Assembly: GCF_963921235.1 (NCBI RefSeq)
Contig: NC_086097.1
Span: 124,808,001-124,872,000 of the forward strand
Length of the DNA stretch: 64,000 nt
Reading direction: 5' to 3'
From: Mobula hypostoma
Lineage: Eukaryota
Below are positions 5,885 through 58,949 of the stretch, one piece after another. The stretch's first letter is position 1, and each line of letters opens with the position of its first letter. The notes below the pieces were generated by a model. It had not been told where the DNA came from, made no database searches, and saw nothing but the letters and a program-made list of their open reading frames with translations. Made by a program: the position numbers and the translations under genes.

Positions 5885-6008
5885 CTTTCTTGTCATCACC
5901 AGAAGCCACTTCAGCTAAGTAACGATAGTAATCTCCCTTCATTTTCAAATAGAAAACTCTGCTCTCTGGAGAACTAGCATTGGCAATCAAGTATTTATCA
6001 AGAAGACC
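5885..6008 (-). CDS. ywhaz: 14-3-3 protein, second coding exon (124 nt, aa 99-139 plus 1 nt)
   Basis: Read by hand: acceptor tttacttcaatttaacag|, then [41 protein letters not shown], then donor AAG|GTATGT. It is in phase with the upstream exon, has the conserved 124-nt length and keeps K120, R127 and Y128. Absent from the ORF track. Confidence 0.95.
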
Positions 6009-13469: not shown

Positions 13470-15329
13470 CACCTAATATCCTCCTCCCTTTTCTTTCATT
13501 GTCCACTGTCCTCTCTTACCAGATTCCTTCTTTAGACCTTTATCTCTTCCACACATCACCTCCTTGCTTCTTACTTCATAACCATCTTCCCCATCCACCT
13601 ACTGCCACCTTACCTGGTTTCATCTATCACTTGCCAGCTTGTATAGATTCCCTCCCCCTATCTTCTTATTCTGGCTTCTCCCACCTTCCTCTCCAGTCCT
13701 GATGAAGGTTCTTGGCCCCAAATGTCGTATTGTTTATTCCCTGCCATAAATGCTGCTTGATCTGCTAGCAGTTACCTTCTGACAAGAAATTCAATGCTGG
13801 CTCAACCTGGAAAGCCCACATTCTTTAAAAATAATCCAGAAAATTTCACTCAATTGCATTAGACTTAAAAGCACATAACATTAAAGCTCAAGACCATACA
13901 ATTTCAGTGCACCCAGGACCTTTTCATAATTTAAAGTGACATCCATGGATTAAGTTCACAATTCCTACAAATACTACAGTTTCCAATGTTTTTGCTTAAA
14001 TACAAATTGGCATCAGTGGTTCTGACCTTCATCTCAACTCACTTTGCCCTCTTTCCCAATCTCATAGCCTTGTGTCTTCTATCAAAGAAACCCAATTACC
14101 AAAATACAGGTAGCTATTTTTGGACTCCTTCAAGATCTTAATTACCAGAAAGGTTTTACCACCAGTTATCTTACCATTGGATACAACAGGGTCTTTTAAG
14201 AGCCTCTTAGATACATGGAGCTTAGAAAAACAGAGCTATGCACTAGGGAAATTTTAGGCAGTTTCTAGAGTAGGTTACATGATCGGCACAACATTGTGGG
14301 CTGAAGGCCCTGTAATGTGCTGTAAATTTCTATGTTCACCTTCAGCCTGAGGTACCCAAGTCATTTGCAATTACACTCCAAGTGTAAAATCTCTGTTTTG
14401 GTATATCTCTGCATATTTCTAAATATCTGCCTATGCCCAAAGTCCATAAATAATGTGACCATTTCTGAACATTAACACCACCACTTTTGATCATAAATTG
14501 CTAAGAATACTAGCTAATATTCTATACAGGTAAGTAGAGATTTCCTCCAAATAATTGATAAATGATACTCAGCCTCCAAGTATAGTCATTGCCTTTTGCT
14601 TTTACTACAATTTTGTATTCAACAGCCAGAAATTATTTGGCAACTTGTGGATAAACCAAATTGTTCAAAATCATGGCGCCACATTCAACACAAACTGGAA
14701 TCTATCATTTGTGCAAACAGAAAATATTTATGTATTGGTTGCCTGCCTCCATCACTGCCTGCTTTGCAGCTCCTTACACCCTAATTTTTTTAATTTACAT
14801 TTCACTCCCCTTCAGGGTTAAAATTACTACTGACCAAGCTTTTCCACCTGTTCCAAGATACCCTTAGAAGACTCAGCTCAATCGATTCTGTTGCTGACTC
14901 CGCCACAGTACTTTGGAACAGTTATGTCAGAGTATAAATACATCCAGATACAGTATAATATAGGACAACATTCCACACAATTAGCTATGATCTGCAACTG
15001 CTAAATACTGGCCAGGATTTGATATCATCAAATACACCAAAAAGCTGTTAGCCAGTACATGCTGAACTTGAAAGGTACTGAATAACCAAATGATTTTCAA
15101 TAAAAACTGTTCAGATGCTTACTCTGAAATATCTGATAAGACATGTTGGATTGTAAGATGTCAGGTAAAAGTTTTGGTGCACATCCGTATAATTCACTTC
15201 CAAACTGTATACAATGCCTTGATCTGACACCTCTAGCAGAAAATGGAAGCCGACAATGCAACACTGCTCTTGCATTTAATTAATTTTACCCAAACACTAC
15301 AAATGCTTCATAAAAACCATCAGGGTAAT

Positions 15330-16450
15330 TCAAGCAACACACACAAAATGCTGGTGGAACACAGCAGGCCAGGCAGCATCTCTAGGAAGAGGTACAGTCG
15401 ACGTTTCGGGCCAAGACCCTTCGTCAGGACTAACTGAAAGAAGAGATAGTAAGAGATTTGAAAGGGGGAGGGGGAGATCAGAAATGATAGGAGAAGACAG
15501 GAGGGGAGGGGTGGATCTAAGAGCTAGAAAGATGATTGACAAAAGGGGATACAGGCTAGAGAAGGAAGAGGATCATGGGACGGGAAGCCTGGGGAGAAAG
15601 GTGGGAGGGGAGCCCAGAGGGTGGCGAGCAGGCAAGGAGTTATAGTGACGGGAACAGAGGGAGAAGAGATAAAAAAAAAAGGGGAAAAAATATATAAAAG
15701 TATTAAATAAGGGATGGGGTGTGCAGGGGAGGAGGGGCATTAGCTGAAGTTAGAGAAGTCAATTTTCATGCTATCAGGTTGGAGGCTACCCAGACAGAAT
15801 ATAAGGTGTTGTTCCTCCAACCTGAGTGTGGCTTCATCTTGACAGTAGAGGAGGCCGTGGATAGACACATCAGAAAGGGAATGGGACGTGGAATTAAAAT
15901 GTGTGGCCACTGGGAGATGCTGCTTACTCTGGCAGACAGAGGGTAGGTGTTCAGCAAAACGGTCTCCCAGCCTGCGTCGGGTCTCGCCAATACATAGAAG
16001 GCCACATCAGGAGCACCGGACGCAGTACGTCACCCCAGCCGACTCACAGGTGAAGTGTCACCTCACCTGGAAGGACTGTCTGGGGCCCTGAATGGTGGTG
16101 AGGAAGAAAGTGTAAGAGCATGTGTAGCACTTGCTCTGCTTACAAGGATAAGTCCCGGGAGGGAGATTGGTTGGGGGTTGTGGGGGAGGGGTGTGGTGAA
16201 TGGACAAAGGAGTCGCGTAGGGAGCGATCCCTGCAGAAAGCAGAAAGATGTGCTTAGTGGTGGGATCCCATTGGAGGTGGCGACGTTATGGAGAATTACG
16301 TGTTGGACCCTGAGGCTGGTGGGGTGGTAGGTGAGGACAAGGGGAACCCTATTCCTAGTGGGGTGGCAGGAGGATGGGATGAGAGCAGATGTGCGTGAAA
16401 TGGGAGAGATGCATTTGAGAGCAGAGTTGATGGTGGAGGAAGGGAAGGCA
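15330..16450 (-). mobile_element. Penelope-like element, 3' fragment with frameshifts, in 14-3-3 intron 2
   Basis: ORF pieces FPSSTINSALK...RVPLVLTYHPTSLRVQH match the 29-31 kb element; same 3' UTR and tail. Confidence 0.9.
15396..15431 (-). ncRNA. Minimal hammerhead ribozyme motif with intact core
   Basis: The minus strand reads AGTC-CTGACGA-AGGGTCTTGGCCC-GAAAC-GTC-GACT. Confidence 0.8.
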
Positions 16451-19400: not shown

Positions 19401-21171
19401 AAATCTGTTTTTCCAACAATGGTTACACACCTCCAAGAGTTGACAAATAAAACCCAATATGAAATGATGTCACTTCATCTACGCCACAGAGTTCTTTCCT
19501 GGATTAGACACTTATTTTTTTCAAATTATCCAAAAAATGCAGCTAAATTGAAACCTGATACAGTTAAATTGACATTTAATGTTTCCATGCATTTTTCCAC
19601 ATTTACAGTTCAATTCTTCCCCCCCCCCACACCAAGGATCAGCTTTTTCTTCCACTATTTACATGTATTAGTAATTTGCTGTGGTGTTAGTCAGAATTTG
19701 ACATACAACCATCTGTAATAAAAGCATGAGCAAATATGCTAGAGAAACAAAACTTGTTTAGATTTACAAACATAACCCAAAACAACTCCCAAACATTTGA
19801 GAAGGGTAGCTGAAGTTCATGCCTTTTGATGTCATACCAAGCTTTTTAAAACTCAGTGAATGGGAAGTGCAGTTGGAACTATCCATTCTGTCACAGGTTG
19901 AAGAAACCAGGCCTCAAATTTTAACACTTGGAAAAAATCTGAGAAATAAAAGCTAGAAGCCTTCCTTATATTACACTCAGGCAATTTAATACAAAGCAAT
20001 TAAAAGACCCAAAGTTTATATTACATTTGATTAAAAAAACAAATTAATCTATACAAAACACGTGTTTATTGCACACTTCAAGCAGAATTTTCTGGAGTTG
20101 GATAATAAAGGGGAGGGGAAGAAAAACCAATAAGGCTCCAATATTGTTCACTTTCAAAATGCTGCAGATAAAAAAAATTGTACCTACCAATCCGTTTTAC
20201 ATGAAAGCAAGATCACTGCAGAAGCAGAAAATGACCTCATGGTGCAAGAATCACTTTCAACCCTCCACCACTGCAACAAAAAAATCCTACCAGGAAAAGT
20301 TCACCTGAATCCAAAAATAAATAGGGAGTCTTCAACCTCACCTCTCCGCACCCTTTAGCAGGTCTACACATCAGCACCAGTGATTAACCGATTTGCAATA
20401 ATCCTTTAGTGACTAGCCTAAAGCTGTGTCACCTAAAGTAAACCGTTATCAGCAGCCTTCAAAGGCACGCCCAATAAAAACCAAGCCTAGTATTGCAATA
20501 AAACAGTAAAGTTAAACAAGGAGCCTCATTTGCATGTGCATAATCAAAGACGATTAAATAACGACTTCAGTGGGGGGGGCAATAACATGTTAAAATTTAA
20601 ATTATTATACTGTATACTTTAAATTTTGAATTAGACAATAATGCAAAACATAGCCGGGAGGCGTTGAGAGGAAGGCCTCCAATGGCAACGCCCAAAAATC
20701 TGGCTGCGTTTCCTTCACCTAATCCGAGACTGCCCGCTATTCCCTCTCAACAAAAAGAGTCCGTTATAACCGATTCCAATATAAGATTTCTTTACGGACA
20801 GATTTAAAATTCAGACTCATGAGAAACAAGGTCAAAGCGGTGACAAGTAAATGCTGCGGCTCCCTGGTAATATGGATTGTAACATCTCAAACCACCACCC
20901 CTCCAACCGGAGGTGAGGAGGAGACTGAACAACCGCAGATTTCCTCCATTTACAGAAAGGGAAACGAGACGAGAGGGAGGATAAAATGATTTTTTTAAAA
21001 AAAACAACCGATTGTAATACTGCCAGACGAAAACATCTGCAAACCGTAATAATACTGCCTTTATCGAGCTATATAGTTCAACGGCTTCGAATGTAAAATT
21101 TACACAAGCTGAAACATCGTTCAGAAATATGTATAAGGAATGCAGGTTTCTCGATTGTAAATGGCGACCTA

Positions 21172-21726
<555 letters not shown>

Positions 21727-22284
21727 TCAAAAAAAGCGACGAGATAAATCCCTTCCCTCCACTGATTTCCACCCTTCCCCACCCATTGTGAGTAAAATCG
21801 AGGGGCGAAAGAAAGGAAGGGATAGAGAACAAGGCTCGCGAACTCCCCACCCTTAACAATAAAAGGAATTGCGACCCTTTCCCAGGGAAAACGCCCCATT
21901 TTTTTCCTCTCCAAAGCAAAAAGGATCTCAGTGAGGGGAGGGAGGGGAAAAAACGAGCCGCACTGCCGTGCCGGGTGGCGGGGGCAAGTGGGCGAGGGTT
22001 CCCCGGCGGCGCAGCGGGGCCTCTGCAAGCCGCCCTCGGCCAGGGTGGCGACAAGTAGCACCCCACCCCGGTCCCGGTGCTGGAGCCTCCATCGCCCGCC
22101 ACCCACCCTCCCCCTTGACGCTCATCTGTTTTTTAATTCTTGTTTTTTTGTTGTTGTTCCCCGATGCACTTCGTCCTCCTCGGTCGATGAATGAATGAAG
22201 GGCTGGGGGGGGGGAGCGGGGTGGGGTGAGGAACGGAGAGAGGAGAAGGGGGGAGGAAGAGAGAGCGGCCGCCCTTTCTTTTAC

Positions 22285-22480
22285 CTACTGTCCGAGTTGA
22301 GCCCTCACGGTGACTCTGGCGCTCAGCGAGTGAGGAGGAACCGCCGCGATTCACCTCACTTGACGCTCGTTCGCCTGCTCGCACTCGCACTCGCTCGCTC
22401 TCACACACACTCGGTGGGTGGGGGAGGTGATGGCGCTGCCACTGCTCAGATGAGGGGGGAGGGGAGGGGAGACGGAGCCT
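22285..22480 (-). other. Probable non-coding exon 1 (5' UTR) of the 14-3-3 gene
   Basis: GC-rich segment just downstream of the promoter motifs, with candidate donor TAG|GTAAAA at 22285/22284 (alternative GAG|GTGAAT near 22354). Vertebrate zeta/beta/theta genes have an untranslated first exon. The TSS is a guess. Confidence 0.5.
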
Positions 22481-22531
22481 TTTCCTCTCTCAGCTGATCC
22501 TCGAGCGGCTCTCCGCCGCACGGGGTTTCCT

Positions 22532-22625
22532 CCAATGAGGTGCAGGGCGAAATGACGTCAAACCGTTGCCCGGGCAACGGCGGCATGATTGACGTGTAAA
22601 ATCGATTATCTCCCGTGTTATAAAA
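22532..22625. promoter_or_regulatory. Proximal promoter motif cluster: CCAAT, full CRE, palindromic RFX X-box, half CRE, TATA-like
   Basis: CCAAT 22532-22536; TGACGTCA 22553-22560; CCGTTGCCCGGGCAACGG 22563-22580; TGACGT 22590-22595; TATAAAA 22619-22625 on the + strand. Confidence 0.7.
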
Positions 22626-25600
22626 CGAAAGGCGCTCTTTCCCACACCCCTGTTTCTTCCCCCCCACCTTCTCAAATGCATCCCTTCCTCCTTTCTCAAT
22701 TAAATTAATGCGGAAGAAAAGAAATAATAATATATATTTATATGGTGCCTTTACACTGGGTGCGTTCGCGCCTTGGGAGTGTTGCGTTTTTGCGCAATGC
22801 TACACGTGTGTAGAAATCCAGCAAGGGGGCAATGAGGGCACTCAACACACCCAGCAGCAGCCTTATTAAAGCTCAAAGCTAACAATGCACTTGGAAAGAA
22901 GGGAGGGGAATGGGAAGGTTACCGAAAACGTTAACCTTTCCAATGCACCACAATTATTGCAATCTGCTAAGCAATTTAGGCTTCATACAGAATCAAACGC
23001 AATATATCAAGGAATTATGTAGTCCCTGTGGTGCTGATGTCAAAAGACTATCTCTATGCAAAACCCAAAATGACAACTGTAAGCTTAAAATTGATTTTCC
23101 CATCTGCAATGCTGCTTTAAAGAATTGTGTATCAGCATTCATAGCTCATTCTGGTATTCCACCAATGGTTGTACAATACATATTCACAATTTGGTTTGTC
23201 AAACCTTCTAGAATGAATTAACTATTATTTGGCTGCCTCATTATTTAATGTATAAAATTTTGCAAAAAAAAAATCATTGATTTACAAGCACAAGAGATTC
23301 TGCAGATGCTGAAAGTCCAGAGAAACACACACAAAATGCAGGTAAGGCAGCATCTATGGAGAGGAACCAACAGTTAGGCCGAGACCCTTCATCAGGGCAT
23401 CTTCAATTTATAAGAAACCTGAACCGGTAGATATCTTCATTCACAACACTGAACTGATCCCTTTGGACTCAGTTTGATGCCCTCTACAACTCATGATCTC
23501 AATATAATTCATGTATTTATTTGTTTATTATTACTTGTTTCTTTTTGTATTGCAGTCTTTGTGTGTAGTTTTTCATCGGTTCTATCGCATGTCTTTCTTC
23601 TACTGTGGATGCCTGCAAGAAAATGAATTTCATGAGGGTATTTGGTGACATATATGTACTTTAATAAAACTTCCTTTGAACCTGCCTGACTTTTTTAATA
23701 TATGAAAAAATAATGGACCCAGTCCCCATTTTTTTCAGTAATCCTTTGAGCATATGAACTCAATCAGAAAAAAGGAGTAATTTATTTATTGCATTTCATG
23801 ACCTTAGAATGTCTAAAATGTGTACATGATAAATAAAGTGTTTTTGATTGCAATGAAAACAAAAATCCTCAAAATCCTGACTCCATGGATGCTGCCTGGC
23901 CCACTGAGTATTTCTGGCATTTTCTGTTTTTATTTCAATAGTTTTGCTTTTCAGAATCAGGTTTAATATCACTGATGTACCTGTATGTCGCGAAATGTGT
24001 TGTTTTGTGCCAGCAGTACAGTGGAATACATAAACATTTACCATAAATTACAATTATATATATATAATTAAATAATTAGTGCAGAAGTAGTGAGGTAGTG
24101 TTCATGCATTGGTTCATTGTGGTGGCAAGAGGGAAGAAGCTTTTTTATTTTTTATTCAGTAACAGCCTCCGTGTCCAAATACAACCCGAGTGACCAACTA
24201 ACCTGCTTACCCATAAGTCTTTGGGGTGTGGAAGGAAACCCGAGCCTCTAGAGGAAGCCTATGCAGTCACGGGGAGGATGTACAAATTCCTTACAGATGG
24301 TGATGGGAATTGAATCCGGGTCTCTGGCATTGTAAAGCGTTATGTTAACTGCAAAGTAGCATTCCTAAAATGTTGATTGTGTGTTTTCAGGCCCCTGTAC
24401 CTCCTCTCTGATGGTAGTACTGAGAAGAGAGCACCAGTAGACAGCAAGCTTTTCACTTACTGTTCAACTACAGTCACCTTTATAAAGAATCTTGACAGAC
24501 AGTTTCCATGCAATAGGTCTAATTGAATGAAATAAATCTTCATAAAAAATATTTTTGAGGTTTATTTCAAAGATTAATTTTCAGAGAAGTTGCTCCCCTG
24601 TCTTGATGTTGCCTGGGATGGATTTTTTCAGCTTTTCCACCATTAGCTATCTCCTGCAATGAAAGATGCAATTCAGAGCATAAGACATAGGAGTAGAATT
24701 AGGCTATTTGGCCCATCATGTCTGCTGCCCATTCCATCATGGCTGATTTATTATCCCCCTCAAACCCATTCTCCTATAAGACATGGGATCAGAAAAAAAA
24801 AAGAATTATTGAGCTGTGCACGGCTGAAAGAAGAATGGTCATATTTTACCCTGGGTCATGGTCTTGAAACACACAGAATGAGGCCTGAAAATGTGTGTAA
24901 AAGGTCTTGGTCTGAAATGTTGATAGGTTATTCCTCTCCACAGATGCTGCCTGATCTTCTGAGTTCCTCTGCCATTTTGTGTGTGTATAGTCATTGCAGT
25001 ATTGATCTGCTGTAGGTTAGTACAGTTGTTATTCCCAGTCTTATCCTCCTTCTACACTCCCCCAATCCTGCCATTTTCCACTCCTTTCTGTTCACCTCAG
25101 CTAGTTCAATTATTTCCTCTTTCACCTGCAGAACATTTAAATCTGAACCCAGTTTAAAAATTTACGTTCCAAATTTACATTTTTCATGTTCAAAATCTTT
25201 TTAACTCTCCATTCATACTGGGAAGTCATTAATTATGGAATTGCAGAGTCACACATCATGAAAACAACTCCTTCGGCCTGCTACGTCCATGCCACTTATC
25301 AGCTAATAATCAATGCTGAGTAACACATTCAAAATGCAGGAGCAACTCAGCAGGTCAGGCAGCGTCTGCAGAGAGGGATAAAGGGTGGATGTTTCGGGCA
25401 GAGGTTCTTCGTCAGGACTCATTCCTTTCCACAGAAGTTCCTTTATTCCTCTCCATAGATGCCACCTGACCTGCACAGTTCCTCCACCATCTTATGTGTG
25501 TTACTCTGATTTCCAGCATCTGCAGAACCTCTTGTGTTTATGATCCACACCAATCCTATTTTCAGCATTATACAGCATGGTGTTTCAGGCAATGATTTTA

Positions 25601-28135: not shown

Positions 28136-29132
28136 CTGGTACTACTGAAGCTCCTGTGAGGTCCACTGTTAATATGGGTTTTCCTGCTGAGTGTAACCTT
28201 GGAAGGTTTGCTATAATTCGGTTCCTCAGGGAGTAATCCCAGTCCTCAGCTGTCTTCCACACACGAGAGGAGTATCTGGATAACAATGAGTTTAACCTTT
28301 TGGTATAAACAGCAAAGCCGAAGCTCAAAGTTCAATGCTTCACAACTCTGGAGGTAGAAAGTCTGAAAGGTCGAAGACTAAAGTTGGTGAGTCCAGAGGT
28401 AGAGGGCCAAAGGCCAAGTCTGCGAGTCCGGGCCAGAGGCTGGAAGTTAGAGGCCTGAGCCAAAGTCAGGAGGTCCGAAGACTTGTCCTGGAGTTTAGGA
28501 GCCTGTTTGTGTGTGGGAACGGGGGTTGTTTTGCTGTTGCAGTCTTGTTTTCTTCTGTTGCTGTTCTTTCTACTGCTTGAGTTGCTCTGGGTTGTGTTGC
28601 TTTAGTGCTGAACTTTGTGGGCATGCTATGTTGGCACTGGAATGTGTGGCAACACTTGCAGGCTGCCCCGGCACATCCTTGGGTGTGTTGGTTGTTCATG
28701 CAAATGACACATTTCACTGTATGTTTCAATGTGATAAATAAATCTAAATCTAAATCTGAGTCACTTTCTTTTGCTATATTATGGATGCCTGTGCAAAATA
28801 TTTTACTGCACTTTTCTAATTTTTTCCTCCTGAAGGGAGCGACTAATTTTGGAGCACATCTCCTCTGCCGGTGGCCACATTTATCTAAGAGCATGCTCTT
28901 CATTAAGAGTCAGAATAAAATTGCGTTGTCCACCATTTTAAAACTGTGAGTATTTTAGCTACATCTACAAACGTTTGTACATTATCCTGTTCTTTCCAAA
29001 CGTCAATAAATGTGCAATTTGAGAAGCACTTCGTAATCAACAGCAGCAGACCAAGATGGTTTTCCCCCTCCAGGAATGTAAACATCAACTGCATTGTCTG
29101 TCCTGGCTGAAATAAACTAACTCAGCATAGAT

Positions 29133-31100
29133 TCATGGACACCCCGCTCTGGTCTTCTGCCTGCTCTGGATCTCTTTATTGCCAGCTGCCTACGGGACAT
29201 CAACCGTCTCGACTTCACCGCACCTTGTCCCCATTCCAACCTCACTCCTTCGGAACGCTCTGCTCTCCACTCCCTCCGCACTAATCCTAACATTATTATT
29301 AAACCCGCTGATAAAGGGGGTGCTGTTGTAGTCTGGCGTACTGACCTCTACCTTGCCGAGGCACAGCGACAACTCGCGGATACCTCCTCTTATTTACCCC
29401 TCGATCGTGACCCCACTAAGGAGCACCAGGCCATTGTCTCCCACACTATCAACGACTTTATCCGCTCAGGGGATCTCCCATCCACTGCTACCAACGTTAT
29501 AGTTCCCACACCCCACACTTCCCGTTTCTACCTCCTACCCAAGATCCACAAACCTGCCTGTCCTGGCCGACCTATTGTCTCAGCTTGCTCCTGCCCCACC
29601 GAACTCGTTTCTGCATACCTCGACACTGTTTTATCACCCCTTGTTCAATCCCTTCCGACCTATGTTCGTGACACTTCTCACGCTCTTAAACTTTTCGATG
29701 ATTTTAAGTTCCCTGGCCCCCACCGCTTTATTTTCACCTTGGATGTCCAGTCCCTATATACTTCCATCCCCCATCAGGAAGGTCTCAAAGCTCTACGCTT
29801 CTTTTTGGATTCCAGACCTAATCAGTTCCCCTCTACCACCACTCTGCTCCGTCTAGCAGAATTAGTCCTTACTCTTAATAATTTCTCCTTTTGCTCCTCC
29901 CATTTCCTCCAAACTAAAGGTGTAGCTATGGGCACCCGTATGGGTCCTAGCTATGCCTGCCTTTTTGTTGGGTTTGTGGAACAATCTATGTTCCGTGCCT
30001 ATTCTGGTATCTGTCCCCCACTTTTCCTTCGCTACATCGACGACTGCATTGGCGCTGCTTCCTGCACGCATGCAGAACTCGTTGACTTTATTAACTTTGC
30101 CTCCAACTTTCACCCTGCCCTCAAGTTTACCTGGTCCATTTCCGACACCTCCCTCCCCTTTCTAGATCTTTCTGTCTCTGTCTCTGGAGACAGCTTATCC
30201 ACTGATGTCTACTATAAGCCTACTGACTCTCACAGCTATCTGGACTATTCCTCTTCTCACCCTGTCTCTTGCAAAAACGCCATCCCCTTCTCGCAATTCC
30301 TCCGTCTCCGCCGCATCTGCTCTCAGGATGAGGCTTTTCATTCTAGGACGAGGGAGATGTCTTCATTTTTTAAAGAAAGGGGCTTCCCTTCCTCCACTAT
30401 CAACTCTGCTCTTAAACGCATCTCCCCCATTTCACGTACATCTGCTCTCACTCCATCCTCCCACCACCCCACTAGGAATAGGGTTCCCCTGGTCCTCACC
30501 TACCACCCCACCAGCCTCCGGGTCCAACATATTATTTTCCGTAACTTCCGCCACCTCCAACGGGATCCCACCACTAAGCATATCTTTCCCTCCCCCCCTC
30601 TCTCTGCATTCCGCAGGGATCGCTCCCTACACAACTCCCTTGTCCATTCGTCCCCCCCATCCCTCCCCACTGATCTCCCTGCTGGCACTTATCCGTGTAA
30701 GCGGAACAAGTGCTACACATGCCCTTACACTTCCTCCCTTACCACCATTCAGGGCCCGAAACAGTCCTTCCAGGTGAGGCATCACTTCACCTGTGAGTCG
30801 ACTGGGGTGATATACTGCGTCCGGTGCTCCCGATGTGGCCTTTTATATATTGGTGAGACCCGACGCAGACTGGGAGACCGCTTTGCTGAACATCTACGCT
30901 CTGTCCGCCAGAGAAAGGAGGATCTCCCAGTGGCCACACATTTTAATTCCACATCCCATTCCCATTCTGACATGTCTATCCACGGCCTCCTCTACTGTAA
31001 AGAATAAGCCACACTCAGGTTGGAGGAACAACACCTTATATTCCGTATGGGTAGCCTCCAACCTGATGGCATGAACATTGACTTCTCTAACTTCCGCTAG
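29133..31100 (+). pseudogene. Penelope-like RT/GIY-YIG polyprotein lacking its N-terminus, with one late nonsense codon
   Basis: The frame of ORF 29739-31007 extends upstream without stops (SWTP..., IKPADKGGAVVV, FYLLPKIHK, GRPIVS). RT motifs DVQSLYTSI, GVAMGTRMGP and RYIDD. Endonuclease motif VIYCVRCSRCGLLYIGET..RF.EH. A TAA at 31005-31007 interrupts a frame that continues ATLRLEEQHLIFRMGSLQPDGMNIDFSNFR to TAG at 31098-31100. Confidence 0.9.
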
Positions 31101-31513
31101 GCCCCACCTCCCCCTCGTACCCCATCTGTTACTCTTTTTTATGCACACATTCTTTCTCTCACTCTCCTTTTTCTCCCTCTGTCCCTCTGAATATACCTCT
31201 TGCCCATCCTCTGGGTCACCCCCCCCCGTCTACCTCCTGTCCCATGATCCTCTCGTATCCCCTTCTGCCTATCACCTGTCCAGCTCTCGGCTCCATCCCT
31301 CCCCCTCCTGTCTTCTCCTATCATTTTGCATCTCCCCCTCCCCCTCCCACTTTCAAATCCCTTACTCACTCTTCCTTCAGTTAGTCCTGACGAAGGGTCT
31401 CGGCCTGAAACGTCGACTGCGCCTCTTCCTATAGATGCTGCCTGGCCTGCTGCGTTCACCAGCAACTTTTATGTGTGTTGCTTGAATTTCCAGCATCTGC
31501 AGAATTCCTGTTG
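29134..31513 (+). mobile_element. Penelope-like retroelement (GIY-YIG endonuclease type), 5'-truncated, young
   Basis: Flanked by the exact direct repeat TCAGCATAGATT (29122-29133 and 31514-31525). Contains an RT + GIY-YIG frame, a pyrimidine-rich 3' UTR and a hammerhead motif. Confidence 0.93.
31383..31418 (+). ncRNA. Minimal type I hammerhead ribozyme motif in the Penelope-like 3' end
   Basis: AGTC-CTGACGA-AGGGTCTCGGCCT-GAAAC-GTC-GACT: stem I AGTC/GACT, CUGANGA and GAAA core boxes, short stem II, GUC cleavage triplet, palindromic ACGU in place of a closed stem III. Confidence 0.8.
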
Positions 31514-32269
31514 TCAGCATAGATTATATTGAATTGGTTGATTTATAATAATAGATATACAGTATAGCTGATGGTAGAATTCACAAGTGCCAAGAATCAT
31601 TTTCACCAAAAGTAAAAGTTTACATGGACAAATGGATCCTGCATGCAGTACATTCAGATTTATTTATTACATGGACGTCGAAACATACAGTGAAATGCAT
31701 CACTTGTATGAACAACCAGAACACTCAAGGGTGGGGGCAGCCTGCAAGTGTCGCCACGCATTCCGGCACCAACATAGCACGCCCACCACGTTTAACACAA
31801 CGCAGAATGATACAAGCAGCAGCAACAGAACAGAACAAGGCAGCAACAGCAAACCCATTCCAACCTTGCCAACAGCTCTGGTCTCCCCGAACCACCCCCC
31901 AACCCCCATCACACATACAGACAGACCTCCAGGACTCCAGTGGCACTGGCAATTCCTGATTTTACCTATTACCCCTTCCTTGCTGCACTTGAAAGGTAAT
32001 GTGTTGTCAAGGCACTATGCGAGTTCAGTAGATCCATGTTCTAGTTTTAAATGTGTATAAAAGCTAAAAATTTTTTCCCCACTGTGCAAGTTTAACAACA
32101 TAGAGCATAGAACATAGAATAGTACAGCACAGTACAGGCCCTTCGGCCCACAATGTTGTGCCGACCCTCAAACCCTGCCTCCCATTGGTACATTGGTACA
32201 TAGCTAGCCACCTGATATGGGTGAGTATAAAATGTATTTTGGAGAAGATGCAGAATAAAAGATACATGT

Positions 32270-32745
32270 ACAGTAGTGAGTAAGACCATAAGAGAGAGGA
32301 GCAGAATTAAGCCATTCGGTCCATTGAGTCTGCTCTGCCATTCGACCATAGCTGCTTTATTATCCCTCTCAACCCTATTCTCCTGGCTTCTCCTGGTAAC
32401 CATTGATGTCTTTACTCATCAGAAACCTATCAACCTCTGCTTTAAATATACCCAGTGACTTGGCCTCCATGGCCATTTGTGGTAATAAATTTCACTGATT
32501 CACTATTCTCTGGCTAGAGAAATTTCTCTTCATTTCTGTTCTAGACTCCCCCACTTTTGAAAACATTCTCTCCACATCCGGTCTATCTAGGCTTTTCAAT
32601 ATCCGATAGGTTTTGATGAGAGCCTCTCTCATTCTCCTGAGCTCCAGTGAGTACAGGCCCAGGGCCATCAATGCTCCTCATACATTAACTCTTTCATGCC
32701 CAGAATCATTCTCGTGAAACTCCTCTGGACCCTCTCCAATGCTGA
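32270..32745 (-). mobile_element. CR1 LINE 3' end
   Basis: Reverse complement of the CR1 tail (TAAGACCATAAG...GAGCAGAATTAAGCCATTCGG) and the adjoining ORF2 end. Confidence 0.8.
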
Positions 32746-33289
32746 TTGCCCACCTTTTTGCTGTATCTGCTCTCTTTTTTTCACCCAGTAAATGTTCTTT
32801 AGATTTTTATTTCCTTTATTCTCTTTCAATTGGACTTCTGATCAAATTCTGGCTTCGATCATTGCTCAGTCATTGCCTGGGTGTTGTAAAGTCCAGGGTA
32901 TGTTGCTGTTATATTCTTTAGCTCCTATATCTGCAGGTCCTTTCTCTTCGAGGCCTCGGCTTGAAGTCTTGTGGGGCAAGGCCTGATGGCTGGTGCTCCA
33001 AGTCTGCAAATCTCTGTGAGTCTACTGAGAAGTCGGGGCCCAGTGTCTATGAATCCACGAGGCAATTAGAGGCCGAAGAAGACAGCCTGTCATGGAGTAT
33101 GTGTATGTGCAGGTGGGTGTATGGGAGCGAGGAATGGGACTTGTTTTACTGCTGTTGGTTGGTATGTTGTGTTCTGTGGACATGCTATGTTGGCACTAGA
33201 ATGTGTGGCGACACTTGCAAACTGCCCCCAGCACATCCTTGGTTGATTATACAAAAGATATACACTATTTCATTGTATGTTTCAATTTT

Positions 33290-33485
33290 CCATTTCCTTC
33301 TGCACCTCATTCAGCACATCGGAAGGCAACTCTGCCATTTCTTTAGCGTTTGTCTGTTTTAAGAGGCCAAGTTGCTAGCTTGACACTCAACCCAGCACAG
33401 GGGGAACTTGAGCAAGGAGCCAGCTGGTTTCGAACCCAGGACCTCTCACCCCAAAGTCCGGTGGGGTTGCCACTATGCCACCGGC
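33290..33485 (-). mobile_element. Second tRNA-derived SINE family (no V domain)
   Basis: The minus strand starts GCCGGTGGCATAGTGG (A box) and has GGTTCGAAACC (B box, 33436-33426). It interrupts the tail of another repeat. Confidence 0.7.
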
Positions 33486-34168
33486 ACAGACATATTTCAA
33501 TGTACATGTGATAAATAAATCTGAATCTGAATTCAAATGAATCCCATCTCAGTGGTTTGACAGAGAAGCCAACATTCTTTTTGCAGGTGCTATTTATATT
33601 CTGGATTGTCAAAGTTGCTCCTGTCGTTGGGAATCATCTAATTGGCTGTTGTCTGGTTGGCTGCAAAGTATTGACTAAGTAATTTTTGATTTGCATGTTT
33701 TTTAAGTCCTTTGAAGGACTCCACAATGCATATTCTCAGTATTATTCTTTTTATTACAGTATTTGCAAGATTTGTCTTCTTTTGCACAATAGCTGTCAAT
33801 ACTTATTTTTCTACAGCACGTTTCTATTGCCATTGCCAGATAAAGTGGTGGACAGTTCAGTGATCGATTGGCTCCTGTTATGGTGCTGGTTACGCAGACT
33901 TTCTTGTTATCACTCGGTCAGATACTGATGTAATCCAACAAAAGTGAAACAAGCCTTGTTCCCCCCCCCCTACACACCCACCCAACCGCAATATATGCAG
34001 TCCTCAAACCCCCAAGAGAGGACATCTATGGCCTACAGCCACCAATGGACTCATGGATTCAGACACTGGGCTTAAACTTTCCCATTGTACCTAGCAGAGA
34101 CTCACATGCAGAGGGCTCTGACCATTGGGCTTCAATCGACCTTCGGGCTTATATTTGGACCTCCAATT

Positions 34169-37190: not shown

Positions 37191-37781
37191 AGATTTTCAA
37201 TCTCCCACCTAAGTATATGCCAATGTTTGACCCTTGTGTGTTGTGAATGTTAATCACCACTATCGGGTCAAAGTCGAACATTGTATAGATCTTGCTGCAA
37301 GCGATCACAAGCAACTTAATTATCTGCAGAGATGTATATTGAATGAAACTGTGTGATTATCAACAAATATCCACAATCTCTGACCTTATGATAGATGAAG
37401 GTTTATTGAAGGAGCAGCTGAAAAACCTTCGGATCCAGGACACTAATTGATATCCCAGAACAGAAGTGATCAGCTAGCAATAATCACAAACATCTTGCTT
37501 GCTTTTGGGTATGACTCCAGTGAGTGGAGATATTTCACCTGGAATTTATTGATCTCAATTTTACAAAACTTCCTCCGTACTTCTTTGACAGTAAGCAAGG
37601 TTATTCTCCTTACTTCAAGATAACTTCTTTTCCATTGAACATAGAACACTACTGGACAATCCACCACAATTTTTTTTAAATAAAGCACCTTTAGTCTAAA
37701 AGACATCCACAAATACTTCTTAGACGTTTTGGAACCAGGCTGCCAATTCAAAACAATTGAGTCCAAAAGCTTAGTCAAAGA

Positions 37782-39097
<1,316 letters not shown>

Positions 39098-39299
39098 GTA
39101 CTCACGAAGAGGCATCACATATAAGACACATCTTACAGACATTACAAATGTGCATCTTGCCCCATATAACAGTAAGTTAATTTGTCTCCTACTATTGATG
39201 TTTTCCCCTGTTAGAAATTAGCTGAGGTGGAAGGCTACAGCTATCACTGTAATGTCCCAGTTATATCATTACGGTTAATTTAATAAAGCTATGTTTCAA

Positions 39300-45045: not shown

Positions 45046-46603
45046 AAACGTAAGAGATTCTGCAGATGCGGGAAATCTAGGGTAACACATACAAATATTG
45101 GAGGAACTCAGCACACCGTCTGCATAGGCCCATTTTTTTTCTGCCTGCTTCTGCCCCATTGAACTCATGTCCACATACCTTGACAGCATTTTATCCCCTT
45201 TGGTTTAGTCCCTTCCCACCTACAGCTGCAAAACTCCACATACTTTCAATCTCCTCAAGAACTTTCAATTCCCTGGACCTGATCGCCTCATTTTCACCAT
45301 GGATTTTCAGTTCCTGTATACTTCTATTCCCCATTGGAAGGCCTTAAAGCTCTCCACTTCTTTCTCAGCAACAGACCTGACCATTTCCCCTCCACCACCA
45401 CCCTCTTCTGCCTGTTGGAACGGGTCCTCATGCTCGACAATTTCTCTTTCAGCTCCTCCCACCTTCTCCAAACTCAAGGGGTAGCCATGGGCACCTGCAT
45501 GGGCCTCACTTGTGCTTCCTTTCTTGTTGGCTTCATGGAACAGTCCCTGCTCCAAGCATTCACTGGTAACACTCCCCAGCTCTTTCTGTGCTGCATTGAC
45601 AACAGCATTGGTGCTGCTTCATGCCCATGTTGAGCTTGTCAATTTCATCAACTTTGCCAACTTTCACCTTTCTCTTCAAGTTTCTGTTTCTGACACCTCT
45701 CTCCCCTTTCTCGATTTCTTTGTCTCCATCTCTGGAGACAAACCATCAACCAATATCTTTTATAAACCTACTCTCTCAGGTATCTTGTCTATACCTCTTC
45801 CCACTTTTGTCACCTGCAAAAATGCCATTCCCTTTTCCCAGTTGCTTCATGTTCACCGCATGCGGATTTCCTTTCCGGAACATCAGAGATGTCCTCCTTC
45901 TTCATAGAAGGGGCTTTTCCCTTCCCCACCATTGATGTTGTCCCCATCCGCATCTCCTCCATTTCCCAGACATCCACCCTCACCCCATCTTCCTGCCGCC
46001 TTAACAGGGAGAGAGTTCCTCTTGTCCTCACCTGACGTAGATTGGGGTCCGCTTTGCTTGGCACCTTCACTCCATCTGCAATGAGCGTCATTTCCCTGTG
46101 GCCAGCCATTTTAATTCCAATCCCCATTCCCATTCCAACGTATTGGTTTATGGCCTCTACAGGCACGATAAGAGTACCTTCAGATTAGAAGAGTAACACC
46201 TCATATTCCGCCTCCAGCCTGCTGGCATGAAGATAGATTTCTCAAAATTCCAGTAATTTTTCACCCCTTCCCCTTCCCCTTTCTTCTATTCCCCATTCTG
46301 ATTCCCCTCTTACCTGTTCTCTTCTCCCCACCTGCCTATCATGTTCCCCTAGTGCCCTGCCTTCTTCTGTTTCTCCCACGGTCCAGTCTCCTTTCCTACC
46401 AGATTCCTTCTTCTTCAGCTTCTCACTTCATTTCCCCCTCCTGACCCACCTGGCTTCACCTATTACCTTCTGCCTTGTACACCTTCCCCTTCCCCCCACC
46501 TTTCTTATTCTAGCTTCTTTCCCCTTCCTTTTCAGTCCTGATGAAGGGCCTCGGCCCAAAATGTTGACCGTTTATCCCTCTCCATAGATGCTGCCTGACC
46601 TGC
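45046..46603 (+). mobile_element. Older, degraded Penelope-like element with an inverted tail copy at its 5' end
   Basis: Broken ORFs (LYTSIPH, TQGVAMGTCMG, CKNAIPFSQ). Decayed hammerhead at 46534-46569 (CTGATGA...AAAATGTT). 45046-45115 is the reverse complement of the family 3' tail. Confidence 0.85.
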
Positions 46604-46802
46604 AAGATATTGTCGTTACAGCTTCCTAGTGTGGGAAAGCTAGATCGGTAAAGTGCAGTGCGCAGGAAGTTCTGAGCAATTCCTGCCTAAGGCTTCCTGT
46701 ATGAGTTGATCTATGCTCAGATCTTGGTGTAAATAAATCTCATTTGATTGCGAGGGGTCATTTAAGTACAAGCTCTATTTATTTGTAAACCCTGCCTAAT
46801 TA

Positions 46803-53582: not shown

Positions 53583-53959
53583 GTCCATATTTCTGTCTCA
53601 GCCCATGGTAGCAAATGGAAAATGCACAAAATATTGCACTAGTGCACATTTCTCAACTAGAGCAACACACACAAAATGCTGGAAAAAATAAACAGTCAAC
53701 ATTTCTGTCTTGGCCCAAAACATCAACTGTTTATTTCTCTCCATAGGTGCTGCCTGATGTGCTGATTTCCTCCAGTATTTTGTGTGTGTTATCCTTTAAA
53801 TGGAATTGGTCTATAGATATTCTATAGGTCACATTTCACTCAATTTACACAAATTTGGCTTTACATATAAGCAGGAACTCCTTGCAGCCACATGGGTAGA
53901 GAACACGTCTATATTTTGGGCTCAGTCTGCTTGGTAACTTGAATAGATTTGAGTGTTTG

Positions 53960-56362: not shown

Positions 56363-58949
56363 TATTGTAAATGCATGCTGGTATTTACGCATATTTTATA
56401 CCTATCTGTACTGTAACTTCTAACTTTATCTGTTATAAAATTCTTTTTTTGTTGTAATTGTTGAATGGTGTTTTTGTGATGTGTCATGACAACGTGCCAC
56501 AGCAAATTCCTAATACATGTAAATGTACATGGTGCATGAAATTGTTCCTTGATTAAAATGAATTTCTAAAACATAACCTTCTCAGGTTGTAGTATTATAA
56601 GAGAGGACAAACAAATTAAGTTTTACTGAAACTGAAGATAGAAAATGAGGGTAACACTCAACAGGTCTGGCAGCATCTGCGGAAAGAGTAAGATTGGAAC
56701 ATTTCAGGTCCAGGGCCCTTCATCACACCAGATGTTGCTTGACCTGCTGAGTATTTCCAACATTATATGTTTTAAATCTGTATTTCCAGTATCTGCAGCT
56801 TTTGAAAGCTTTCCTTTTAAGTTATTTCACAGGTGACACAGTGGGCCCAGCCAGTAGAGCCATTGTCTCATAGCACTAAAGACCAGGTTCAATCCTGACC
56901 TTGGGTGTTTGTCTGTGTGAAGTCTGCACCTCCTCCTTTTGACTGAATGAGTTTCCTCTGGTTGCTCCAATATACAGAACATTACAGCGCAGTACAGGCC
57001 CTTCAGCCCGTGATGTTCTACCACCCCCCTCTGCACCCTCTCCAAAGCTTCCAGGTCCTTCCTATTATGAGGAAACCAGAACCGAACACAATACTTCAAA
57101 TATGGTCTGACTAGAGCTGCAACACTATCTCACAGCTTTTGAACTCACTCTTCAGACTAATAAAGGCCAGCACATCATACACCTCCTTAACGACCCTATC
57201 AACCCTACCTCCTCCCTCATATTAAAGAGGTGGGAGATTGCTGTCTTTGTGTATGGACCGGTAGAATCTATGGGGGAGCTGCTGAGAACATGGGGAGGAA
57301 AAAAGATGGAATGAATATGGGATTAAAGCAAATGGCTGATTGATGCTTGGTACGGATGTAGTGGACCCAAACGTCTGTCTGCATGCCTTGTCTCTCTATG
57401 ACTCTCTGCATAATCCTGATCTTTATAACTTCACTCACCTCAACTCTGAACTGATTCCACAACCTATGGACTCATTTTCAAGGACTCCACAACCTACGTT
57501 CTCAATATTATTGATTTATATATTCATTCATTTATCTATCTACCTATGCATTTATTTATTTATTTCAAACACAAGAAAATCTGTAGATACTGGGGATCCA
57601 AAGCAATACACACAACACGCTGGAGGAACTCAGCAGGCCAGACAGCATCAATGATGAAGGGTCTCAGCCCAAAACGTCGACTGTTTACTCTTTTCCATTG
57701 ATACTGCCTGGCCTGCTGAGTCCCTCCAGCATTTTGTGTGTGTTATTTATTGACTTGCACAGTTCGTCTTCTTTTGCACATTGGTTGTTTGTCAATCTTT
57801 GCAGTTTTTCATTGATTCTATTGTATTTTCTTTGCTCTACTGTGAATGCCTGCAAGGAAATGAGTTTCAAGGTAGTATATAGGGACATATACATAATTTG
57901 GCGATAAATTAACTCTGAACTTCGAACTTAAAAAATCTAATTATCAGCCTTTGTAGCACACTTGCCTTTGTGAGTAAAAATGTTGCAGGTTCCAGTCAAG
58001 ACACATCAGAAGAAATCACTGCTCCCACACTGGAGTGCTACATTGTCAGACATCCCTTTAATTCTGATGAAATGTTAAATCCAGTCAAGATTTCACTGCT
58101 GCGATCTCCATCGAGATCGTGGCTCAGATTTTGCTGTTTGTAGGAATGGTTTAGGGAGCAGAGAGGGGAGTTAGCAGTCAGGCTGGGGTCTTATGATAGA
58201 GTTGTGGTGGAGGTAGAGGTCAGATCTTCGCTCTGTGTTCGAAGCCCAGTGATGTGGGCGTGTGATGGAGGAAATCCAGAGTCCAGACCTCTGCTCCGTG
58301 CTCGAGGCCAGTGATATGGACATGGGGATAAAGGACATCTGCAAATATCAGGCTGCCTAAGGTTGGCAGGTCCCAGGATCTACAGTGAGTTTGTATAAGC
58401 AGGAGGGCTGAGGGCTGGTCAGTTGAGCCTGGAGTTCAGGGTCTCATCAGCAGCTAAGCCGCTGGTCAATACCGAAGACTGAAACCCTAAAGTTGATTGG
58501 AGATTTGGAAGTCAAAGCCCGATGGCTGAAGCCTGGAGTCTGGAGACTGGAGACCTGACAGGCAGACTGTCTGTGTTTGTGTGTGTGAGTGGGTGGGGAA
58601 AAATGGCTTGTTTTGTTGTTGTGTTCTGTTGTGTGTCCTGCTTTGTTCTACTGAGCGTTGTCTGCCTGCTGTGTTGGTGCCAAAATGTTTGCCAGCCCAT
58701 CTTTAGGTCTGTTGGCAATGAACACAAATCATTTCACTGTATGGTTCGATGTACATGTGATTAATAGGTGAATCAGAATCTGAAGACTCCACAGCACAGT
58801 TTCAAAGCACAGTGAAGATATCTCTGGTATGCTTATTGATGCCTTCAAACAGATTGTTACACTGGTGTTCACATATACTTGTCCTACCCCTATGTTCTTC
58901 TGCATTAAGCCTATAATTTCATGCCCTATCCACTTAAACTGTTAGGATC

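What the first reader, a model, noticed from the sequence alone, without database searches (positions are those of the whole stretch)
31383..31418. Minimal hammerhead ribozyme motif in the 3' end of a young Penelope-like element
Seen: AGTC-CTGACGA-(stem II)-GAAAC-GTC-GACT has both catalytic boxes, a stem I pair and a GUC triplet, predicting a cut after 31414. GAAAC abuts GTC, so stem III has no loop and only the palindrome ACGU. Known: Penelope-like elements carry minimal hammerheads that cleave poorly as monomers and are thought to act as dimers. Inference: this fish family processes its RNA the same way. No ORF or repeat label shows this feature.
Basis: partly seen in the sequence, partly recalled or inferred. 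Interest (0 to 1): 0.75.

Follow-up and report, generated by a model that had tools for sequence, protein, structure and literature searches.

The report
Penelope-element minimal hammerhead in a ray
The 36 bases are a real minimal hammerhead-ribozyme motif at the tail of a young but broken Penelope-like retrotransposon in what is likely a ray genome, an arrangement described in 2014; it is predicted to cut RNA only weakly, as a pair or with the element's protein, and this copy is likely inert.

Summary
Observation confirmed. 31382-31419 has both hammerhead core boxes, a 4-bp stem II, a 5-bp stem I, a loopless stem III (palindrome ACGU) and a predicted cut after 31414. It lies 287 nt behind the stop of a 5'-truncated RT + GIY-YIG Penelope-like element (29134-31513, 12-bp target duplication, Neptune-type zinc-finger linker, one premature stop). 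Chance is excluded: 14 of 36 related elements from other contigs carry both cores behind the ORF on the sense strand, 0 of 36 on the other; stems differ in sequence yet stay paired (44 of 48 cells, 1 of 40,320 permutations). The motif fits the published metazoan min-HHR consensus (Cervera and de la Pena 2014), and one relative carries the very motif listed there for a coral Neptune element. Cleavage was not tested. The monomer is predicted to be locked off; this solo copy has no partner in cis, and a G-U in place of the usual G10.1-C11.1 pair. In a lizard relative the ribozyme needs the element's protein and is dispensable for insertion in vitro. The scan found the same thing before in this and other shark or ray genomes. 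Ordinary: new member of a known kind.

The parts
29122..29133 (+). Left copy of the 12-bp target-site duplication
   Evidence: Only exact direct repeat of 8 nt or more between the two ends; rough chance 2e-4; protein homology starts at its last base
29134..31513 (+). 5'-truncated Penelope-like retrotransposon copy (Neptune type), no 5' pseudo-LTR
   Evidence: tblastn of 889- and 904-aa relatives matches from residue 237 and 255 onwards at 29133-31088; bounded by the duplication
29133..31100 (+). RT + GIY-YIG reading frame, 655 codons, N-terminus missing, premature stop at 31005-31007
   Evidence: DKG 29307-29318, RT motif 4 29733-29759, YIDD 30033-30044; Pfam RVT_1 E 1.7e-5, below curated cut-off; best homologs Mobula 87-94%, Hypanus 77-80%, Chiloscyllium 68-72%; 98-100% of contig depth in 4 of 4 runs reads other letters at the stop
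30696..30722 (+). CX4CX2C zinc-finger-like linker (Neptune/Nematis marker)
   Evidence: motif defined in PMC8557442 passages
30804..30947 (+). GIY-YIG endonuclease core with CxxC between GIY and YIG and two downstream histidines (CCHH)
   Evidence: Pfam GIY-YIG E 2.2e-4, 21.9 bits against cut-off 22.6
31382..31386 (+). Hammerhead stem I, 5' arm
   Evidence: pairs with 31415-31419; covaries across families
31387..31394 (+). Core box C3-A9 plus the extra nucleotide between 9 and 10.1 typical of min-HHRs
   Evidence: invariant core columns in alignment A3; extra nucleotide in the published consensus
31395..31406 (+). Stem II, 4 bp with 4-nt loop; G-U at 10.1-11.1
   Evidence: predicted pairing probability 0.96; G-C in 7 of 8 rows of A3, G-U only here
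31407..31414 (+). Core box G12-A15.1, loopless stem III (palindrome 31410-31413), C17; predicted cut between 31414 and 31415
   Evidence: sequence; standard hammerhead numbering; matches published consensus
31415..31419 (+). Hammerhead stem I, 3' arm
31485..31513 (+). About 30-nt optional 'tail' of the element's 3' end (boundary approximate)
   Evidence: 3' ends of window fragments fall mostly in two groups, about 31472-31491 and 31502-31513; contig depth ends at 31515; tail described in PMC8557442 and PMC11167929
31514..31525 (+). Right copy of the target-site duplication
15324..16447 (-). Sister copy of the family (82% identical) with an intact motif at 15432-15395 that keeps G10.1-C11.1

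Best explanation
This is a minimal type I hammerhead motif in the 3' pseudo-LTR region of a Neptune-type Penelope-like retrotransposon, predicted to be inactive as a single RNA and likely to cut after 31414 only slowly, when two copies pair through the ACGU palindrome or when the element's own protein refolds it; this truncated copy is likely an inert passenger. Steps: (1, shown) both core boxes, stems I and II and the palindrome are present and are kept under covariation across related families, so the fold is selected in the parent elements. (2, predicted) With no loop 3, stem III cannot close in one molecule, and the monomer instead pairs G5-G8 with C15.2-C17, hiding the core. (3, inferred from published relatives) In a parent element, arranged as a partial tandem with the motif in both pseudo-LTRs, two motifs meet in one transcript or on the element's dimeric RT-endonuclease, build stem III between them, and cut, which would trim tandem or read-through transcripts to unit length late in the cycle. 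(4, shown for the breaks, inferred for the outcome) This copy lost its 5' end, has a premature stop, has no second motif in cis and is decaying at CpG sites like its neighbours, so it likely makes no active ribozyme.
For: Position: both exact cores lie within 450 nt behind the ORF on the sense strand in 14 of 36 related loci with 200 nt or more of downstream DNA, 0 of 36 on the opposite strand, shuffled mean 0.36, maximum 4 in 200. Covariation on hits chosen by core and position only: 44 of 48 stem cells paired in 8 representatives (6 related families, the non-pairing L085 hit kept in, this copy), permutation mean 29.5, reached by 1 of 40,320 permutations; on MAFFT alignment A3 (8 rows, L085 left out) 93.8% paired, 7 of 8 pairs with changes on both sides, 0 of 500 shuffles, 28-39% when slid. 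Fit to the published consensus, and the motif in L015 is letter for letter the one listed for the Acropora digitifera Neptune element from stem I to stem I. Monomer fold: locked form -11.0 kcal/mol against -7.0 for stems I+II with open core, P(G5-C17) 0.98. Published assays: S. mansoni min-HHR silent as monomer, low activity as dimer or trimer (PMC4209133); anole Poseidon HHR cuts only with protein added (PMC11167929). Decay: only 4 of 19 aligned window fragments keep all 11 core letters; the 11.1/12 dinucleotide is TG in 8, CA in 5, CG in 3, other in 3.
Against: No cleavage was measured. Co-folding of two copies gives a long intermolecular duplex (-30.3 kcal/mol), not the dimeric hammerhead, so dimer activity is not supported by the energy model. 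5' ends of window fragments do not pile up at 31415. In the anole element, ribozyme mutants inserted normally in vitro and no RNA-seq reads began or ended at the site; Naiad elements thrive without the motif (PMC8557442 passages). 22 of 36 related loci lack an exact core in the 450 nt (some have one-mismatch versions). U at 11.1 is not private to this copy: C makes up only 21, 29, 6 and 34% of contig depth in the four runs, and several published min-HHRs have G-U there, so it may not mark decay or lost activity.
Confidence: 0.8

Rival explanations
1. The fold is kept mainly as a binding or positioning landmark for the element's RT-endonuclease (or as a hitch-hiking motif), and cleavage is incidental to the life cycle.
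For: Anole ribozyme mutants do not change insertion in vitro, uncut RNA is the main template, no reads end at the site. Naiads lack the motif and outnumber motif-bearing families. Copies here, this one included, were reverse-transcribed straight through the site, so their templates were uncut.
Against: The letters that stay fixed across families while the stems change are the catalytic ones; C3/G8 mutants abolish, and the double mutant partly restores, cutting in the anole element; fungal PLE hammerheads cut well as monomers.
Confidence: 0.15
2. This copy has been co-opted by the host as a working ribozyme that affects a nearby transcript.
For: Core intact; a 14-3-3 gene with a CpG island starts about 6-7 kb away.
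Against: The gene runs on the minus strand away from the element, so its RNA would not hold the motif; the copy is young, which explains the intact core; monomer predicted locked; neighbours decay.
Confidence: 0.03
3. Chance resemblance in a GC-rich repeat.
For: Folding z-score -0.37; no Rfam hit; 25 of 500 shuffled windows hold one descriptor hit somewhere.
Against: Same place and strand in related families with compensatory stem changes; Rfam also misses the published-type control.
Confidence: 0.01

Closest known systems
Minimal hammerheads (min-HHR) in the pseudo-LTRs of metazoan Penelope-like elements, including Xena, Poseidon and Neptune elements of fishes (Cervera and de la Pena 2014, PMC4209133)
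   Same: Type I topology, no loop 3, palindromic 15.2-16.2, one extra nucleotide between 9 and 10.1, short stem I, position behind an RT + GIY-YIG ORF, mostly solo copies on 5'-truncated elements; relative L015 has the motif listed for the A. digitifera Neptune element.
   Different: Host is likely a batoid cartilaginous fish, a group absent from the rows of their Table S1 and Figure S3 as read here; stem II is short (4 bp); this copy has G-U at 10.1-11.1 (also seen in a few of their rows).
PAc, Poseidon element of Anolis carolinensis (Frangieh et al. 2024, PMC11167929)
   Same: RT + C-terminal GIY-YIG, pseudo-LTR hammerhead, optional 30-40 nt tail that matches two reverse-transcription start sites.
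   Different: Other clade (Poseidon lacks the CX2-5CxxC linker that this ORF has); there the motif overlaps the start codon, which could not be checked here because the 5' end is missing; protein-assisted cleavage was shown there, not here.
Non-LTR retrozymes of animals (PMC7229834; Li, Clavereau and Pollet 2026, 10.64898/2026.07.22.740005)
   Same: Type I hammerheads that act as dimers in vertebrates; proposed to derive from PLE pseudo-LTRs; reported in the one chondrichthyan sampled in the preprint.
   Different: Retrozymes are non-coding tandem repeats of about 50-1000 bp, mostly with canonical hammerheads; this is a solo motif attached to a coding element.

Membership tests
Metazoan PLE min-HHR | Core boxes CUGANGA and GAAA, U16.1, H17 | tested here: met
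Metazoan PLE min-HHR | Stems I and II present, supported by compensatory changes | tested here: met
Metazoan PLE min-HHR | No loop 3; palindromic 15.2-16.2 | tested here: met
   31410-31413; CG in 6 of 8 representatives
Metazoan PLE min-HHR | Extra nucleotide between 9 and 10.1 | tested here: met
   A at 31394
Metazoan PLE min-HHR | G10.1-C11.1 pair (highly conserved, not universal) | tested here: inconclusive
   G-U in this copy, G-C in the sister copy and 6 related families; G-U occurs in some published rows
Metazoan PLE min-HHR | Located in the pseudo-LTR region behind a PLE ORF, sense strand | tested here: met
   287 nt behind the stop at 31100; same arrangement in 14 of 36 relatives
Metazoan PLE min-HHR | Weak self-cleavage as dimer or with protein | not testable with these tools
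   needs an in vitro assay
EN+ Penelope-like element | Single ORF with RT and C-terminal GIY-YIG, CCHH with two cysteines between GIY and YIG | tested here: met
   definition; both Pfam scores are just under the curated cut-offs
EN+ Penelope-like element | 5' truncation, inverted partner copies, optional tail, variable target duplication | tested here: met
EN+ Penelope-like element | Two pseudo-LTRs (partial tandem) | tested here: not met
   only the 3' one is present because the copy is truncated; a feature of full-length copies, not of the family label
Neptune clade | CX2-5CxxC linker upstream of GIY-YIG (shared with Nematis, absent in Penelope/Poseidon) | tested here: met
   30696-30722
Neptune clade | RT phylogeny with named Neptune references | not tested
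   no named reference sequences were held; indirect link through the L015 motif and the preprint's statement that vertebrates hold only Neptune and Poseidon
Canonical type I hammerhead / non-LTR retrozyme | 6-bp stem I with loop-loop contacts, stem III with loop, tandem short repeats | tested here: not met
   no loop 3, solo copy, no Rfam hammerhead hit

The most novel reading that the evidence does not exclude
The genome holds a fossil record of the ribozyme acting in vivo: back-to-back insertions of this family arise from two RNAs held on one protein dimer, and the hammerhead formed between them cuts only one. In 5 of 5 back-to-back pairs in the window one arm begins downstream of the predicted cut (reference 31419-31459) while the other runs into or through the motif, and in 4 of 5 the short arm is the one with the tail (read by eye). 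Against it: the short arms start at scattered places, not at 31415; solo tailed copies run through the site; inverted pairs in L007, L015 and L086 hold a motif on both arms; n is 5.
Probability: 0.07. Interest if true: 0.6.

Novelty: new member of a known kind. Interest (0 to 1): 0.15.

Why it matters
Little by itself: it adds a cartilaginous-fish Neptune-type family to a class known since 2014, and the scan has logged it several times. What hammerheads do for Penelope-like elements is still open, and this family is so dense (29 fragments of its 3' end in 64 kb, about 11% of the window with the coding remnants) that a whole ray assembly would give very large numbers of insertion ends with which to test whether cleavage leaves a mark on where copies begin.

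Tried and rejected
Own genome: none held, so no genome-wide copy census. Rfam: no hammerhead family at E<=10 over 29000-33500 or 31340-31470; control L015 also missed; uninformative. Folding z-scores of the motif (-0.37) and of the RNA behind it (-1.4 to +0.3 over five stretches) show no unusual stability, so a conserved 3' hairpin was not claimed. Sequencing runs: no RNA holder listed on record, 23 runs, all contigs; laying 4 of them gave no start or end pile-up, which contigs cannot show. Viral contigs: no relative of the protein among 43 pattern matches; a 20-nt pattern gave one chance match in a phage-like gene, L089. L085's core-only hit does not pair and is taken as chance; it was kept in the permutation test and left out of alignment A3. 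Motifs upstream of ORFs (L013, L018, L028, L033, L050, L071, L076, L077) and off-position ones were not used for covariation. The idea that U11.1 is a private lesion was dropped. An alternative register with the extra A pairing to U at 31406 gives only 3 pairs and was not preferred by the fold. Literature searches for Penelope + Neptune + shark + retrotransposon gave 0 papers and hammerhead ribozyme + Chondrichthyes gave 5, one relevant; no rate data for a G-U at 10.1-11.1 were found, so that such a change lowers activity is recalled, not sourced.

Full report
Observation. The 36 letters are at 31383-31418 on the plus strand. In hammerhead numbering: stem I 5' arm 31382-31386, C3-A9 at 31387-31393, one extra A at 31394, stem II 31395-31398 paired with 31403-31406 around a 4-nt loop, G12-A15.1 at 31407-31410, C15.2 and G16.2 at 31411-31412 with no loop between them, U16.1 at 31413, C17 at 31414, stem I 3' arm 31415-31419. 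Stem I has five pairs counting one U-G. The pair next to the core in stem II (10.1-11.1) is G-U. A min-HHR descriptor of my own (both cores, stems of 3 bp or more, 0-6 nt in loop 3) finds 2 hits in the window, at 31387+ and 15427-, against a mean of 0.056 in 500 shuffles; 25 of 500 shuffles had one hit or more and 3 of 500 two or more. Folding energy is ordinary (z -0.37). Rfam shows no hammerhead at E<=10 but misses the control motif in L015 too.

The carrier. A frame from 29133 to 31100 (655 codons, one internal stop at 31005-31007, no frameshift) holds DKG, RT motif 4, YIDD, a CX4CX2C linker (30696-30722) and a GIY-YIG core with CxxC between the two halves and two histidines behind. Pfam gives RVT_1 (E 1.7e-5) and GIY-YIG (E 2.2e-4), each just under its curated cut-off. 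The closest named proteins are from Mobula hypostoma (87-94% identity), Hypanus sabinus (77-80%), Chiloscyllium and Rhincodon (68-72%), then unnamed and invertebrate proteins at 45-56%, so the host is likely a ray. Relatives of 889 and 904 aa match from residue 237 and 255, starting at 29133-29136, exactly where a 12-bp direct repeat (29122-29133, 31514-31525) bounds the insertion. The copy is therefore 5'-truncated, with no 5' pseudo-LTR. At the internal stop, 98-100% of contig depth in 4 of 4 runs laid reads other letters, so the stop is peculiar to this copy. CpG observed/expected is 0.59 in the element, 0.40 and 0.26 in two other remnants and 0.30 in the window, in line with a young insertion. 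The linker marks Neptune or Nematis and is absent from Penelope/Poseidon (PMC8557442, passages); no tree with named references was made.

The family in the window. An iterated nhmmer search finds 29 fragments of this 3' end (second round); with coding remnants they cover about 11% of the window. Of 19 fragments aligned (those judged to reach the motif), 4 keep all 11 core letters and 2 pass the descriptor. The dinucleotide at 11.1/12 is TG in 8, CA in 5, CG in 3 and other in 3 of 19, the pattern of CpG decay from CG. But C at 31406 makes up only 21, 29, 6 and 34% of contig depth in the four runs, so U11.1 is common and may belong to a master lineage; this is not settled. 3' ends fall mostly in two groups about 30 nt apart, the optional tail that PMC8557442 and PMC11167929 describe. 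5' ends do not pile up at 31415.

Test across families. An alignment of this protein with 41 relatives fetched 80 metagenome loci (best 80 of 374 found) and 8 genome loci. The ORF end was mapped in 42 of 88, and 36 had 200 nt or more behind it. Both exact cores, with no pairing asked for, lie within 450 nt behind the ORF on the sense strand in 14 of 36, on the opposite strand in 0 of 36; shuffles give a mean of 0.36, maximum 4 in 200. Twenty-two of 36 had no exact core; several of them have one-mismatch versions. Thirteen of the 14 fit the fold, 95-313 nt behind the ORF; L085 does not. With one representative per family (six families, L085, and this copy) 44 of 48 stem cells pair, permutation mean 29.5, reached by 1 of 40,320 permutations; stem I alone 22 of 24. 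On MAFFT alignment A3 (two window copies, six loci, L085 left out) 93.8% of cells pair, 7 of 8 pairs change on both sides, 0 of 500 shuffles reach the score and slid controls pair 28-39%. The invariant columns are the core letters, G10.1, G16.2 and U16.1.

How it likely works. The single RNA is predicted to pair G5-G8 with C15.2-C17 (-11.0 kcal/mol, probability 0.98) rather than leave the core open (-7.0); the sister motif behaves alike. With no loop 3, stem III needs a second molecule; the palindrome allows this (inference, as argued in PMC4209133). Simple co-folding prefers a long duplex (-30.3), not the dimeric hammerhead, so help from protein is likely needed. Published tests agree: a schistosome min-HHR was silent as monomer and weak as dimer or trimer, and the anole Poseidon motif cut only when the element's protein was added, with catalysis by the RNA. 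The same paper found that ribozyme mutants inserted normally in vitro and that no RNA-seq reads ended at the site, so the role (trimming tandem or read-through transcripts) remains a proposal. For this copy: no 5' end, a premature stop, no second motif in cis (the nearest intact one is 16 kb away on the other strand) and a position about 6 kb outside the CpG island of a 14-3-3 gene that runs the other way. It is likely an inert passenger. No RNA holder was listed on record among 23 runs and contigs cannot show ends, so expression is untested.

Comparison with what is known. The motif fits the consensus of Figure S3 of Cervera and de la Pena 2014 except for the last base of stem II, and several of their rows have G-U at that pair too. 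They report min-HHRs in Xena, Poseidon and Neptune elements of fishes, coelacanth, frog and reptiles. The motif in L015, whose protein is about 49% identical to this one, equals their A. digitifera Neptune row from stem I to stem I. No cartilaginous fish is among the rows I read. Searches for a paper on shark or ray Penelope hammerheads gave nothing more. What I saw: PMC4209133 parts 1-2 of 4 of the text and parts 1-2 of 3 of the supplement; PMC11167929 parts 1-2 of 4; the preprint parts 1-2 of 5 and passages; PMC8557442, PMC7229834, PMC544870 and PMC2837043 passages only. Six earlier notes of this scan, two from the same genome, reached the same reading; I had formed mine before seeing them and they are not independent evidence.

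Verdict. Real, correctly read, and ordinary: a new member of a known kind, interest 0.15. The one lead worth a genome-wide count is the asymmetry of back-to-back pairs (5 of 5 with one arm starting behind the predicted cut, 4 of 5 with the tail on that arm), which I put at 7% as a trace of cleavage in vivo because the starts are scattered and inverted pairs in three related loci hold the motif on both arms.

Noticed in passing
window 21633-21340 and about 6000-5900, minus strand; CpG island about 20500-23000: A 14-3-3 gene (Pfam PF00244, E 2.6e-35) with its first coding exon starting at 21633 and a later exon near 5945. The element of the finding lies about 6 kb beyond the island on the opposite strand.
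   Followed up: partly
window 15324-16447, minus strand: The sister copy sits in the intron of that 14-3-3 gene in the sense direction, so an intact minimal hammerhead with G10.1-C11.1 (15432-15395) would be part of the pre-mRNA; its monomer is also predicted locked.
   Followed up: partly
window 57574-57747, 56639-56800, 25318-25535, 1737-1907, 53657-53798: Five back-to-back pairs of the family's 3' end; one arm starts downstream of the predicted cut, the other reaches the motif; the short arm has the tail in 4 of 5.
   Followed up: partly
L081, L082, L086 (about 100 nt behind the ORF end) and L056: A core variant with C in place of U4 recurs in otherwise perfect motifs of one related family.
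   Followed up: no
L033:323-360 and L028:338-375: In two relatives with long intact frames (1049 and 1139 codons stop to stop) the upstream motif overlaps the start of the frame; in L033 the first ATG lies inside the core box, much as in the anole element.
   Followed up: partly
window 45140-46604, plus strand: An older, frameshifted Penelope-like remnant (43-54% protein identity to this copy) with a decayed motif at 46538.
   Followed up: partly
L081-L087: Seven contigs of one 'bacterium' genome assembly in the GTDB set carry animal-type Penelope-like elements, likely host contamination.
   Followed up: no
window about 37650-39200: Long interrupted (CA)n microsatellite of about 1.5 kb.
   Followed up: no
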